Source: Negaprion brevirostris (taxonomy: Eukaryota). Taken from it: a DNA stretch of 64,000 bases. The position numbers were made by a program, and so were the translations under genes. This document shows positions 7,134 through 64,000 of the stretch, one piece after another. The stretch covers positions 5,775,937 to 5,839,936 of the forward strand of contig JARDVH010000194.1 in assembly GCA_030324005.1 (NCBI GenBank). Direction: 5' to 3'. The number at the start of each line of letters is the position of its first letter. Positions within the stretch are counted from its first letter, which is position 1. The notes under the pieces were generated by a model. The model ran no database searches, was not told the DNA's origin, and worked only from the letters and a program-made list of their open reading frames with translations.

Positions 7134-7181
7134 CTGCAGTCACCGTCACCATGGTCCCTTGTCCCCAGTAGCCCATCTCGT
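7134..7181 (-). CDS. IGHJ: Immunoglobulin heavy-chain J segment (EMGYWGQGTMVTVTA)
   Basis: WGQG motif. Splice donor G|GTAAG at 7133. 5' RSS: heptamer CACTGTG 7188-7182, 23-bp spacer, nonamer GGTTATTGT 7220-7212. Confidence 0.96.
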
Positions 7182-7220
7182 CACAGTGTCACATTCTCTA
7201 GGCTGGGTCATACAATAACC
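7182..7220 (-). promoter_or_regulatory. 23-RSS upstream of JH
   Basis: On + strand CACAGTG (7182-7188), 23 bp, ACAATAACC (7212-7220). Confidence 0.93.
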
Positions 7221-7548
7221 ATCCCTGCACAAAATAGAGAGAAATCCATCAGTACTTACAAAAAATCACAAGCCAGAGGGAAAGTGAATCACTGCATTTT
7301 CATGAAATTATTATTGCACTGGTGGATACTGTTCGCTCTACATAAATAACCCTAATGTTTCATATTTCACAGAGGATCACATGATCAAGATATTGAAAAC
7401 ACTAACTGATAATCAAATAGTTATCATAATTTTTCCACCTTAATTCTCGTTATTTGTGTAGTGCTGGGACATAAATAGTACAGCACTGTAAATAACGCTG
7501 GATTGTAAAACAGAGCACTGCCCCAGCCTCGGTCAATTAGTGCTGAGG

Positions 7549-7616
7549 AGTTTTTGTATTGACAGGAACTGCTGTGCCACCCACCTATCACAGTGAGACA
7601 CAGCATGCCAAATACT
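7549..7616 (-). other. IGHD: IgH D2 segment (coding 7588-7577, ATAGGTGGGTGG) flanked by 12/12 RSSs
   Basis: Minus strand: AGTATTTGG-12-CACTGTG-[D]-CACAGCA-12-ACAAAAACT. Confidence 0.92.
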
Positions 7617-7930
7617 GTGCCCGCCTGCTAACTGTAAAATACAGAGATTTAATTCCACTGCTGTCTCAAAAACCGGATTCTGCCTCATCCACGAGCGAAT
7701 GAGTCAGTTATTTCAGCCTGACCTAGTCATTATATTCATAAAGGATATCGGATTGCTCTGAAACCCTTTGTGTAGATTTAGCACATTGGTCAATATAGAT
7801 TTTACGGGGAGAATTTTATGTGTTTTTCAGAAACTAATATTACTTCCACACATTATTTCATTGAAGCCTCGTTTATTTTGAAAATTCTGCCGTGGTACTG
7901 ATTACCAATTTGAACAATCTCTTTCCCTGA

Positions 7931-8010
7931 GGTTTTTGTTTGAGGGTGTCGCTGTGCTCAGCATTGTGACCCCCTGTTGTATCACAGTGACACACACCCG
8001 CTCAAAAACT
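7931..8010 (-). other. IGHD: IgH D1 segment (coding 7982-7969, ATACAACAGGGGGT) flanked by 12/22 RSSs
   Basis: Minus strand: AGTTTTTGA-12-CACTGTG-[D]-CACAATG-22-ACAAAAACC. Confidence 0.92.
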
Positions 8011-8377
8011 GCACTCACTCTCTGTTCAGTGCTGCCGCTCGATATTTACTTCAAATAGACCATTATTTCGATGTAATTTACAATTTATGCAGCGGTTTAC
8101 AAAACACAATCTAGAATCACCTCCACCAAGTATCAGAAATAGTAAAACGAGCATTATATCCAGGTGTGTAATTGCTGAAACTGTTAACAGTTAATATAAA
8201 CAGAGTGAAAATCTCAGCCCATTATGCCTGTTTTCTTGATTTAATGTTTTATTTTCACTAAGTTGGGTTTGTCAGAATAGGTTTGTGTTTTGGTTCTGAT
8301 CACTGTCGTTATTATTATATTTAAAACAGATACTGACCTTCAGGTTACGATGGAGGTTTCTGAATTCCCTCTCGAGC

Positions 8378-8416
8378 AGTTCTTGTCCGGGTGCAGCCCT
8401 GGTTCCTCTCGCTGTG
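8378..8416 (-). promoter_or_regulatory. 23-RSS downstream of VH
   Basis: CACAGCG (8416-8410), 23 bp, ACAAGAACT (8386-8378), directly after the YYCAR codons. Confidence 0.93.
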
Positions 8417-8720
8417 TCTCTTGCACAGTAATAGATGGCTGTGTCTTCGATCTTCAACCTCGTCATCTCCAAAGAGAAGATGTTGTTTGAAGTGTCTTTG
8501 GAAGCAGTAAATCGATCCTTAATCGCTGGGGCGTAGTAGTTGTCTGATGAAGTATGGTAGCTAACCAGACACTCCAGCCCCTGTCCGGGAACCTGTCGGA
8601 TCCAGAACGTGCGGTAGCTGCCAAGATTGAAGCCGCTGGTTTTACAGGTCAGTGTCAGGGAGCCTTCGGGACGCCCGGTCTCTGTCTCTGGCTGAGTCAA
8701 CACAACCTCCGACTGGACAC
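8417..8720 (-). CDS. IGHV: Immunoglobulin heavy-chain V exon, shark IgM-type VH, germline configuration
   Basis: Acceptor TTTTTACAG at 8721, then [100 protein letters not shown]. Both canonical Cys and the core Trp are present, with no stops. Confidence 0.97.
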
Positions 8721-8840
8721 CTGTAAAAATAGATCAAAAAACCCCGAGGATTAATCCTGGTGTAATGATTGCTGACTTTGCAACAAAGATTGAGACGGTA
8801 ACAGTGAGAGACTTGGACAATTAAAAAAAAAACTACTCAC

Positions 8841-8886
8841 CGGATAAAAAAGTCAGCAACAAACTGAGAGAAATGGCCGACCTCAT
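8841..8886 (-). CDS. IGHV: IgH VH leader exon (MRSAISLSLLLTFLS-G)
   Basis: ATG at 8886, hydrophobic 15-mer, phase-1 donor G|GTGAGT at 8840, 120-bp intron in frame with the V exon. Confidence 0.93.
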
Positions 8887-61543: not shown

Positions 61544-62379
61544 CTGCAATAGAGGGAAAGAGATTGTGAGAATCTGTGCATGAAAGCGTGAGAAATGGAA
61601 AGTTCATCGCAAATAAAAAACAATTAATGACATTGTGTTCTGCGTGATATGTGCACCTCAGAGGCAATTGTACTTGCTTAATAATAATATTTTTATTAAT
61701 AATAAGGAACATTAACAAAATTGACTGTATCTTTAGTGAGACCTGACAAAGGCATAATGCGAAATGGAAAACACATCAAAACCAGCACTGAAGCATTAAA
61801 TGCACAATACAATGACATGAAAATAAGTAATTTTAAAAAATGGAGCAGGTAAATTGGAAAATAACTATCATTAAGTGTGGAAGTTAGTAAGGTCAAGGAT
61901 TATATAGCAATGGGTATTAAATATGACACATGAATGACAGCAAAACGATTTACTTTTGGAAAATTCTGCTGTGAATTTTCACGAATACACCTTCAAACGA
62001 AGGCAAATAAATTGACAATTATTAGCAGTTGTCTGAACTTGTGGAGGAGATTTGGGAAGCAGCGCTAAGACTGAATTGTATCCCTGATAATCGTCTGAAA
62101 TATCCGGTGATATATAAAACAATACTCTAAATACGAGAGATTTGACCAGTTATGTTGCTTGACTCATTGCAGAAAACAGAACAATTCGAAACGATGCTGG
62201 GTCCTGGCACAGCACAAGATGTAAATGTGAAATAGAACTCCCGGGCTGAGCCAATGAATGCTTGGCACTAGAAGCAGGCATAGGTTGTTGTGAGTTGGGG
62301 ATAAGTAGCAAACATTGAGGGAATTGATGCAACCAATCAATATGTTTTTGGCAGCTATTAAATAACTCAGATATCTTAC

Positions 62380-62449
62380 CTGAAACTCCGATAGCTGCTA
62401 TGACTGGATAATAAATGGCAAACACCAGGCCTTTTGGTATTCCATGCAT
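62380..62449 (-). CDS. GPCR gene C, exon 1 (MHGIPKGLVFAIYYPVIAAIGVS)
   Basis: ATG at 62449, YYP..A.IGV motif as in gene A exon 1, phase-1 donor G|GTAAG at 62379 in frame with exon 2. Confidence 0.88.
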
Positions 62450-62498
62450 TTCTTCCAGAAGCGCTGATTGCAGTCTGCACTACATTGATGAATTGCCA

Positions 62499-62506
62499 TA
62501 TTTATA
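62499..62506 (-). promoter_or_regulatory. Candidate TATA box of gene C
   Basis: TATAAATA 50 bp upstream of the ATG. Confidence 0.5.
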
Positions 62507-62637
62507 CCAGATGTCAGGGTCTAGGGATATAATTAAATTTCTTGATCTTTCGCATTAATTAAATTGAAGAGAACAAACAGATTACTGCAACAAAAGCAAC
62601 GTGACACAATGGTTAGTACTGTTGCTTCAGAGCAAGT

Positions 62638-62990
62638 AGTCTCACACACCAGGTTAAAGTCCAACAGTTTTATTCGGTACCAAAAGCCACTAGCTTTCGA
62701 AGGTTGCCCCTTCGTCAAGTAAGCTGGAGTTCTGTGCACAAATAAGGCATATAAAGACACAAACACAATTTTCGAAATAATGGTTTGAATGGAGGTCTTT
62801 ACAAGTAATCCAATCTCAAAGGTACAGACAATGTGAGTGGAGAGAGGGTTCAGCACAGGTTAAAGAGATGTGTATTGTCTCCAGACGGGGCAGTTAGTGA
62901 GATTTTGCAAGCCCAGGCAAGTAATGGGCGTTATAGAAAGTGTGACATGAACCCAAACTCCCAGTTCAGACTGTTCTCATGTATGCGGAA
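62638..62990. mobile_element. Penelope-like element end nested inside a SINE
   Basis: CACCAGGTTAAAGTCCAACAG..TTTATT...AGCTTTCG terminus. The SINE head at 62601-62632 resumes at about 62991 (CCAGGGAC...GGGTCACTGTCTG). Family assigned from recall. Confidence 0.55.
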
Positions 62991-63049
62991 CCAGGGACTT
63001 GGGCCCAATTCCGGCATAGGGTCACTGTCTGCGTGAAATTTGCACATTG

Positions 63050-63135
63050 TAACCATAACCCTAACCTTAACACTAAAACTAACCACAACCCGAACTAACT
63101 ATCTAACTCTAACCTTATCATTAACCCTAACCCTC
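63050..63135. repeat. Degenerate (CCCTAA)n telomere-like tract
   Basis: TAACCATAACCCTAACCTTAACACTAA...TTAACCCTAACCC. Confidence 0.75.
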
Positions 63136-63879
63136 GGTGACAATGAAGCCAATACAAAACAAAAGCAAGAATATGGACCTCAAGAAAGGGGATAGGAAAA
63201 GGTTCAGAACAAAACAAAGAAAGTAGCCCACCAGTTAAGAAGCCAACAGCCTCGTAGACAGAGACTAATCTCTCCCTAACCTACAGACAATAAAGATTCA
63301 TTGGATCCCCCAGAACCCAACACCACCCAAATGATACGAAAAACTCTCCCAAGCCAAGGCGTTTGTGGAGGGGTGGAGGTGGGGGGGAGGGAGGCGTTGG
63401 GGGCGTGGAGGGGGATGGGAGTGCGGAGGGCATGGGAAATTATGATGGATGCTGAGATGATGATGTCCATGAAATACTAGCCCCAAACTCCCATTGAGTT
63501 ACATTCAGAGCCAATTGCAGCTCGGACAGAAAATTGGATTGTCTGTGATTACACTTAATAAAATCCGTGTCAGCATTCGACAATGCGATTGGTATATTGA
63601 GCTAATAACTGAAATCAGTGCACAGTTAGTCATTTTGGTGCGCTCATGCAATTTACAGTATGTGTTATAGATCAGAGTGAGTTAGGGCTCGAATTGTGCT
63701 GAATTAAACATTATTACAAGTAACTACATTTTAAATATATACAGAACATAACATAGAGGCAGGGTTCGGCTGGATTTCTNNNNNNNNNNNNNNNNNNNNN
63801 NNNNNNNNNNNNNNNNNNNNNNNNNNNNNNNNNNNNNNNNNNNNNNNNNNNNNNNNNNNNNNNNNNNNNNNNNNNNNNN

Positions 63880-64000
63880 CAAACTGTCCCTATAACCCTC
63901 ATCGCCGTTTTCTTGCTGCAATATTTCGTCTTCAACTTCTGGCAACAAATGGCAACAAATCGATCAAAGGTAAACGCGACTGTTGTCCAGACAGAACAAT
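63880..64000 (-). CDS. GPR139/GPR142-like GPCR gene D, internal fragment (TM3-TM4) between the window end and a gap
   Basis: CSVWTTVAFTFDRFVAICCQKLKTKYCSKKTAMRVIGTV. Confidence 0.88.

What the first reader, a model, noticed from the sequence alone, without database searches (positions are those of the whole stretch)
7134..64000. Expanded orphan GPCR array placed beside IgH V-D-D-J clusters
Seen: one complete IgH minilocus, the promoter of a second, and at least four GPR139-like genes in both orientations within 64 kb. Known: shark IgH genes are organised as multiple V-D-D-J-C clusters, and mammalian GPR139 and GPR142 are single-copy aromatic amino acid/peptide sensors. Inference: this may be a multigene germline receptor repertoire amplified together with antigen-receptor clusters, with an immune or chemosensory role. 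Caveat: every IgH-to-GPCR connection here crosses a 100-N gap.
Basis: partly seen in the sequence, partly recalled or inferred. Interest (0 to 1): 0.75.

Follow-up and report, generated by a model that had tools for sequence, protein, structure and literature searches.

The report
Shark receptor family near antibody genes
A shark antibody gene and pieces of five related cell-surface receptor genes lie on separate DNA fragments stitched together by the assembly, but other shark and ray genomes place this very large, little-studied receptor family on the same chromosomes as antibody and MHC genes, where it likely spread by its own duplications and likely acts as a varied set of chemical sensors.

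Summary
The genes are real; their closeness in this window is not shown. The window is nine contigs joined by 100-N gaps. It holds an IgM-type L-V-D-D-J with no constant exon, two (probably three) further paralogous IgH upstream pieces, and five GPCR paralogues, only one near-complete. Contigs 2 and 3 overlap in homology, and IgM clusters lie at least 120-190 kb apart in other sharks, so the gaps hide unknown distances. No IgH contig shares unique DNA with a GPCR contig. The receptors belong to a huge elasmobranch family that RefSeq labels 'probable GPCR 139'. They are not GPR139 orthologues. Independent assemblies support regional linkage: same chromosome as IgH in 3 of 4 testable sharks (one match inferred from length), and a ten-gene array between sawfish MHC class Ib genes. 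The family is also spread over many other chromosomes, and no leukocyte expression was found. Best reading: an independently duplicating sensor repertoire that shares multigene regions with immune loci. Co-amplification with IgH is unproven (about 20%). This scan noted the family twice before on other DNA; the immune-locus linkage is the new element.

The parts
8841..8886 (-). IgH leader exon
   Evidence: splices in frame to the V exon
8378..8720 (-). IgM-type VH exon (8720-8417) and its 23-bp-spacer RSS
   Evidence: Pfam V-set 1.2e-15; 73-78% identical to full-length shark IgM V regions; RSS
7969..7982 (-). D1 segment, 12-bp RSS 5', 22-bp RSS 3'
7577..7588 (-). D2 segment, 12-bp RSS on both sides
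7134..7181 (-). JH segment with 23-bp RSS and splice donor; no constant exon in the 7.1 kb that follow
22341..28687 (-). contig 2: promoter and upstream DNA of a second IgH cluster
   Evidence: 71-82% identity to 8934-13690
28788..32680 (-). contig 3: upstream DNA of a third IgH cluster; overlaps contig 2 in homology
   Evidence: 76% over 1,863 bp to contig 2, 68-75% to contig 1; joint 28687-31059 in 4 of 4 runs
32781..33019 (+). GPCR A exon 1 (first ATG 32797; frame open to the contig edge; 42-bp repeat encoding a 14-residue N-terminal unit)
37103..38007 (+). GPCR A exon 2 (rest of TM1 to stop), phase-1 intron before it
   Evidence: 7tm_1 8e-17; spliced product 375 aa, 79% identical to Mustelus P0003
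40165..40827 (.). 26-bp satellite array (period 13/26/52/78) between GPCR A and the next gap
50729..51639 (+). GPCR B exon 2; exon 1 not in the contig
   Evidence: 7tm_1 3.8e-20; 77% identical to A; no exon-1 hit
55716..56887 (.). non-coding segment shared with contig 1 (15879-16986); probably a fourth IgH upstream piece, possibly a rarer repeat
   Evidence: 79% over 1,188 bp with a shared microsatellite; no conserved frame seen
57173..59083 (.). four tRNA genes or pseudogenes (Arg-ACG, Gln-CTG, Gly-GCC, Asn-GTT)
   Evidence: ARAGORN; Rfam 39-54 bits
59847..60678 (+). fifth GPCR paralogue, intron only, ending 23-24 bp before the exon-2 position
   Evidence: 71-84% identity to introns of A and B
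60779..62449 (-). GPCR C, divergent subfamily: exon 1 62449-62380, exon 2 from 61543, cut by the gap before TM7
   Evidence: 7tm_1 1.4e-12; splices in frame; 68% identical to Stegostoma P0219
63882..63998 (-). GPCR D fragment (TM3-ICL2, 39 codons)
   Evidence: tblastn 72-77% to A, B, C

Best explanation
The window is a stitched set of nine contigs from two multi-copy shark gene families, IgM V-D-D-J clusters and a very large two-exon class A GPCR family, that likely share one chromosomal region in this shark but likely duplicate as separate units, the receptors likely serving as a diversified chemical- or peptide-sensing repertoire. Shown: the genes, their exon structure, their paralogy, the unbridged gaps, the size and dispersal of the family, variable outer loops on a conserved core. 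Inferred: the scaffolder stacked paralogous fragments from one repeat-rich region; the family spreads by tandem and segmental duplication into multigene regions, including the antigen-receptor complex and the MHC, much as olfactory receptor arrays flank mammalian MHC and TCR loci (recalled); each receptor couples through a common intracellular face while the outer loops set ligand preference. Tissue odds (my estimate): sensory or barrier epithelia about 0.45, leukocytes about 0.25, reproductive or other about 0.3.
For: Gaps hide distance: contigs 2 and 3 overlap in homology and contigs in 4 of 4 runs continue from 28687 into 31059; IgM clusters are at least 120 kb apart in nurse shark (PMC2435157) and at least 190 kb start to start among 9 white shark IgM models (PMC12227049 table S1). 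Separate units: only short dispersed-repeat matches between IgH-type and GPCR-type contigs; no GPCR exon in 13 kb upstream or 7 kb downstream of the V-D-D-J; AU test rejects one clade of IgH-chromosome GPCRs. Regional linkage: C. punctatum IgH XP_072404785 and GPCR XP_072404764 on one 84.5-Mb sequence; S. torazame IgH XP_072357606 and GPCR XP_072357441 on one 330.8-Mb sequence; S. canicula seven-member cluster on a 133,841,611-bp sequence while the antigen-receptor chromosome 17 has IgM up to 133,540,320; 13 genes of this name on the sawfish MHC chromosome, ten in a row 89 kb from an MHC-Ib gene. Dispersal: 11 horn shark sequences of 20 Mb or more among 58 hits. Loops: mean entropy 1.25-1.78 bits in extracellular loops against 0.24-0.76 in TM2-TM7, 119 sequences; dN/dS A vs B 0.89 in those loops, 0.44 TM, 0.31 intracellular.
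Against: No physical distance between an IgH cluster and a GPCR gene was measured in any genome; accession order is only a proxy. The catshark chromosome match rests on length. The one white shark hit (118.5 Mb) is not on its antigen-receptor chromosome 27. The two catsharks are not independent. The sawfish genes were identified by name, not sequence. IgH upstream and GPCR non-coding paralogues are diverged to a similar degree (68-82% and 71-84%), which co-duplication would also give. The sensing role has no expression or ligand data; dN/dS is one pair with loop borders set by eye.
Confidence: 0.6

Rival explanations
1. True co-amplification: the long spacers between IgM clusters carry GPCR arrays and tRNA genes, and a unit of 100 kb or more holding both was duplicated repeatedly.
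For: All nine contigs belong to one of the two families or share DNA with contig 1, and contig 6 lies among GPCR contigs; similar divergence of both paralogue sets; accession numbers 21 apart in C. punctatum; spacers of 120-190 kb leave room.
Against: No shared unique sequence within the 20 kb flanking the V-D-D-J; none of 270 GPCR models shows IgH similarity although 8 or 9 of 30 scanned models are fused to other neighbours; GPCRs on IgH chromosomes group by species, not by location, though gene conversion could cause that.
Confidence: 0.2
2. Pure assembly artefact: the contigs were joined by repeat-driven mis-scaffolding and the two families are unlinked in this species; matches elsewhere are chance, given a family present on many chromosomes.
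For: No gap bridged; contigs as short as 832 bp; family on at least 11 large horn shark sequences; IgM on seven chromosomes in bamboo shark (PMC8692893).
Against: Same-chromosome result in 3 of 4 testable species; rough chance 0.001, or 0.006 counting two independent lineages (chromosome numbers recalled, test made after seeing the first match); sawfish MHC array.
Confidence: 0.15
3. On function: the family is an innate immune receptor repertoire of leukocytes, like formyl-peptide receptors or MRGPRs (recalled), kept near MHC and antigen-receptor loci by shared regulation.
For: Array between MHC-Ib genes in sawfish; copies on antigen-receptor chromosomes; one model fused to an integrin alpha-X-like gene; variable outer loops.
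Against: 0 of 8,645 marker rows from bamboo shark spleen, liver and kidney cells carry the name, while 11 rows name other coupled receptors or their kinases (PMC11372145); weak if each cell uses one copy, since all rows I saw had at least 26% of cells positive. Other fused neighbours are non-immune (sodium channel, hexokinase, uromodulin-like).
Confidence: 0.25

Closest known systems
Elasmobranch IgM minicluster (V-D1-D2-J-Cmu), nurse shark and Triakis type
   Same: L-V-D-D-J within 2 kb, RSS pattern, V 73-78% identical
   Different: constant exons lie outside the window; nothing new in the cluster itself
Human GPR139 (PDB 7VUG) and GPR142
   Same: best solved-structure match of the family profile, E 5.6e-12; H187 and W241 equivalents kept, F109 as Tyr or Phe
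   Different: only 48.6 bits against 99-168 for bony-vertebrate relatives; N271 equivalent is mostly Phe, H113 equivalent is Asp in 119 of 119; invariant TM3 and ECL2 cysteines that the aligned GPR139 does not show; hundreds of copies against one
[quoted passage not shown]
   Same: the window genes are members: A and B are sister to Mustelus asterias P0003 (99/97), C to Stegostoma P0219
   Different: an automatic label; I found no paper describing the expansion
Olfactory receptor arrays beside mammalian MHC and TCR loci (recalled, no call)
   Same: large class A GPCR arrays in both orientations beside immune loci, with tRNA clusters nearby
   Different: different GPCR branch, two exons, no expression data
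Elasmobranch antigen-receptor complex (Flajnik et al. 2025, PMC12227049)
   Same: IgM clusters spread over megabases of one chromosome; the likely setting of this window
   Different: the paper lists only Ig, TCR and marker genes; no GPCR is mentioned in text or table

Membership tests
IgM minicluster | one V, two D, one J within about 2 kb with 12/23-compatible RSS | tested here: met
   1,753 bp span; spacers 23, 12/22, 12/12, 23
IgM minicluster | Cmu exons downstream of J | tested here: inconclusive
   none in 7.1 kb to the window edge; nurse shark distance is 6.3-6.8 kb, so they may lie just outside
Class A GPCR | 7tm_1 domain, DRY-like motif, seven helices | tested here: met
   Pfam above cut-off for A, B, C; DRF invariant; model with seven long helices, pLDDT 64, all top fold matches class A
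GPR139 orthologue | closer to GPR139 than to other receptor lineages | tested here: not met
   48.6 bits for human GPR139 against 168 newt, 167 coelacanth, 152 and 99 teleost, 110 an unnamed ENA protein, same profile; GPR139 itself could not be put in the tree
GPR139 orthologue | Trp/Phe pocket F109, H187, W241, N271 (PMC5430874 abstract) | tested here: not met
   Tyr 90 / Phe 29, His 116, Trp 119, but Phe 107 / Tyr 7 / Leu 3 at N271, of 119 (mapping from the alignment)
GPR139 orthologue | activation by L-Trp or L-Phe | not testable with these tools
   needs a cell assay
Co-amplified IgH-GPCR cassette | one duplicated unit containing both genes | tested here: not met
   no shared unique DNA in the contigs at hand; units longer than the contigs cannot be seen
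Co-amplified IgH-GPCR cassette | enrichment of the GPCRs near IgH loci genome-wide | tested here: inconclusive
   same chromosome in 3 of 4 species, but no coordinates and many other chromosomes
Chemosensory-type receptor repertoire | many paralogues, lineage-specific expansion, variable ligand face | tested here: met
Chemosensory-type receptor repertoire | sparse expression in sensory cells | not testable with these tools
   no RNA data could be laid

The most novel reading that the evidence does not exclude
Sharks and rays carry a germline repertoire of hundreds of non-olfactory GPCRs that is built into the antigen-receptor complex and the MHC, fills the long spacers between IgM clusters, was multiplied with them, and is expressed one or a few per cell in immune or barrier cells as an innate sensing layer.
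Probability: 0.15. Interest if true: 0.85.

Novelty: new variant of a known kind. Interest (0 to 1): 0.5.

Why it matters
Cartilaginous fishes are described as poor in GPCRs (PMC8455134) and as relying on about 35 V2R-type genes for smell (PMC11979771). A family with 58 distinct clusters from one shark among only the best 120 hits contradicts that picture and is hidden behind a misleading automatic name. Its presence in the sawfish MHC and probably in the antigen-receptor complex bears on how these regions were built, and on whether GPCR arrays beside immune loci are an old arrangement or arise repeatedly. Both linkage and tissue can be settled from public annotation and RNA data.

Tried and rejected
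No whole genome is held for the window, so no genome-wide scan. Sequencing-run search: no RNA holder listed; not used as evidence. Laying four runs on 19200-38400: no listed piece bridges any of three gaps, but the contigs are short, so this is no proof against adjacency; summed depth (gene A exon 2 bin 9,076 in X1 against 11-18 for near-exact pieces) suggests many copies but is not a copy number. Apparent exon-1 hit for gene B near 47260: rejected as a hydrophobic chance match. A first tree of 120 rows did not finish; smaller trees were used (44 of 120 homologues and 34 of 150 representatives; 15 homologues). P0001, P0002, P0085 were dropped from entropy counts as over-long models. IgM constant-region search gave few chromosome-placed models; S. 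canicula P0127 and M. asterias P0135 are on unplaced scaffolds, and no Amblyraja GPCR was sampled, so these were not testable. Fold search does not single out GPR139 (rank 12, low-confidence model). Telomere-like hexamers were counted and show no clear signal outside the satellite. Absence of the receptor name from the first two shark MHC sheets of PMC10751288 was not counted, because 'histocompatibility' is also absent there. Nurse shark spleen paper: the one readable supplement (4,750 characters) was too small to inform. The Sensory Shark supplement could not be read and may hold the tissue answer. Literature searches for the expansion found nothing relevant; most subscription papers are not in the library.
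Full report
Layout. The window has eight gaps of exactly 100 N, two of 10 N and seven longer N runs inside a CA-rich repeat. The 100-N gaps define nine contigs: c1 1-22240, c2 22341-28687, c3 28788-32680, c4 32781-46764, c5 46865-55615, c6 55716-59746, c7 59847-60678, c8 60779-63779, c9 63880-64000. No whole genome is held.

IgH. c1 carries a germline leader (8886-8841), V (8720-8417), D1, D2 and J (7181-7134) on the minus strand, with RSS spacers 23, 12/22, 12/12 and 23 and an open leader-V frame. 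The V is 73-78% identical to full-length shark IgM V regions. Four IgM proteins find only V and J in the window, so the cluster is not complete here; in nurse shark Cmu1 lies 6.3-6.8 kb from the segments (PMC2435157, passages seen). c2 starts with a second promoter (82% over 371 bp). c3 is a third upstream copy, and the first 1.17 kb of c6 matches c1 15879-16986 at 79%. Whether that c6 piece is IgH-specific is not shown.

GPCRs. A (c4) has two exons with a phase-1 intron and gives 375 residues from the first ATG; its frame runs to the contig edge inside a 42-bp repeat. B (c5) has exon 2 only; C (c8) has a 23-codon exon 1 and is cut before TM7; D (c9) is 39 codons; c7 is the intron of a fifth copy. 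A, B and C pass the Pfam 7tm_1 cut-off. A and B are 77% identical, C about 45-50% to either.

The gaps. c2 and c3 overlap in homology over 1,863 bp at 76%, and contigs from 4 of 4 runs go from the last base of c2 into 31059, the matching point inside c3 (these contigs may come from other copies). So c2 and c3 are paralogues, not neighbours. c4 begins inside exon 1 of A, so its promoter is missing. IgM clusters are at least 120 kb apart in nurse shark and at least 190 kb among nine white shark models (PMC12227049 table S1, part 1 of 2 read); three or four upstream regions in 57 kb cannot be the physical layout if this shark is similar. Between IgH-type and GPCR-type contigs the only matches outside simple repeats are nine pieces of 100-275 bp at 66-75%, all in dispersed repeats. 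All four IgH-type pieces share one orientation, as do A, B and the intron copy; this suits reference-guided or proximity scaffolding, or a real tandem region, and I cannot tell which.

The family. Exon 2 of A finds 1,841 clusters at E<=1e-5 among 2,879 candidates; the 120 shown are all from sharks and 119 carry the name GPCR 139. Horn shark gives 58 of the 120, on 38 sequences, 11 of them 20 Mb or longer. Trees group members by species or order; A and B are sister to a Mustelus asterias protein (99/97), which points to a ground shark (inference). A profile of 31 members has GPR139 as best solved match at 48.6 bits, but newt, coelacanth and teleost proteins of the same automatic name score 99-168 bits. 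The family is thus a separate branch near GPR139, expanded in elasmobranchs, with low-copy relatives in bony vertebrates. Of four GPR139 pocket residues (PMC5430874, abstract seen), two are kept, one is Tyr or Phe, and N271 is replaced. Across 119 sequences the extracellular loops are the most variable parts and TM3 the least; A against B gives dN/dS 0.89 in those loops, 0.44 in helices and 0.31 inside. The structure model is weak (pLDDT 64) and shows only a class A fold.

Linkage elsewhere. In Chiloscyllium punctatum an IgH model and a family member lie on sequences of identical length, 84,521,793 bp, with accessions 21 apart; two other members lie on 69.1- and 70.8-Mb sequences with accessions over 10,000 away. 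In Scyliorhinus torazame the pair share a 330.8-Mb sequence, 162-165 accessions apart. Tandem copies on one chromosome lie within about 30 accessions, so the order carries some positional signal, but it is a proxy. In S. canicula a seven-member cluster lies on a 133,841,611-bp sequence; the antigen-receptor chromosome 17 has an IgM ending at 133,540,320, so these are probably the same (inferred). The single white shark hit is on a 118.5-Mb sequence, not chr27: a miss. That is 3 of 4 testable species; a rough chance value is 0.001, or 0.006 for two independent lineages (chromosome numbers recalled, test chosen after the first match). The gene table of the sawfish MHC chromosome lists 13 genes of this name, ten consecutive at 13.38-13.68 Mb on both strands, 89 kb from one MHC-Ib gene and 281 kb from the next (PMC10751288 supplement rows); the main text has no 'GPR'.

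Against a special tie to IgH. The GPCRs on IgH chromosomes do not form a clade with A and B (p-AU 1e-34; group named by location but after the first tree; gene conversion could blur this). Of 30 long or divergent models scanned, fusions with neighbours involve an integrin alpha-X-like gene, a sodium channel, uromodulin-like, I-set/fn3, hemopexin, trypsin, hexokinase and TRIM domains, with one more weak Ig match; none of 270 models resembles IgH. IgM itself is on seven chromosomes in bamboo shark (PMC8692893, passages). In bamboo shark spleen, liver and kidney single-cell data, 0 of 8,645 marker rows carry the name (PMC11372145, supplement search and passages); this is weak against sparse expression.

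Mechanism. Most likely the receptor genes multiply by tandem and segmental duplication, helped by flanking satellites, and settle in multigene regions that also hold IgM clusters, MHC-Ib genes and tRNA genes. The scaffolder then stacked fragments of both families. The conserved inner face with variable outer loops suggests one signalling route and many ligands; peptides or amino-acid-like compounds are the best guess from the receptor branch (inference). Co-amplification in units longer than these contigs stays possible.

Literature. Seven searches for the expansion or its linkage found no description; term searches in five genome papers found no mention (bioRxiv 10.1101/2022.10.17.512540, PMC11979771, PMC10115646, PMC8455134, PMC7677710; passages only). 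PMC8455134 speaks of a relative paucity of GPCRs in cartilaginous fishes. For PMC12227049 I read section 6, passages and half of table S1; for PMC10529500 one small supplement. Subscription papers and unread supplements may describe the family.

Verdict. Observation partly confirmed; interpretation partly supported. Interest 0.5; new variant of a known kind.

Noticed in passing
window 57173-59083: Four tRNA genes of different isotypes within 1.9 kb, with low Rfam scores (39-54 bits), so possibly decayed; contig 6 ends in a TATA-like promoter stretch near 59630-59746 whose gene is lost in the gap.
   Followed up: partly
window 32781-32878: A 42-bp tandem repeat encodes a 14-residue N-terminal unit of GPCR A; relatives carry 0-5 such units and 0-5 N-glycosylation sequons, a variable-length stalk.
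   Followed up: partly
window 40165-46764: 26-bp satellite rich in TCAGGG, followed by 5.5 kb of CA-rich and then CT-rich repeat; matches the cassette noted in e1-7939187 and suggests that A and B are true tandem neighbours. No such array in the 1.3 kb upstream of gene C.
   Followed up: partly
window 15879-16130 and 55716-55960: The first 250 bp of the segment shared by contigs 1 and 6 are about 90% identical, above the 79% mean, with no open frame or Rfam match.
   Followed up: partly
window 8417-8720: The VH has Cys in place of the usual framework-2 Trp (GLECLV against GLEWLV in relatives), an unpaired cysteine or a sign of decay.
   Followed up: no
window 60779-61543: GPCR C lacks four residues in TM5 relative to 30 aligned relatives; it may be a pseudogene or this may be a subfamily trait.
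   Followed up: no
P0296, P0209, P0265: Chimeric gene models join family members to uromodulin-like, integrin alpha-X-like and sodium-channel genes; human GPR139 lies beside GP2 and UMOD (recalled), so some copies may remain at the ancestral site.
   Followed up: no
window 20400-22240: LINE-like coding remnant at the end of contig 1, the probable cause of the assembly break; no Pfam match for 21589-22239.
   Followed up: no
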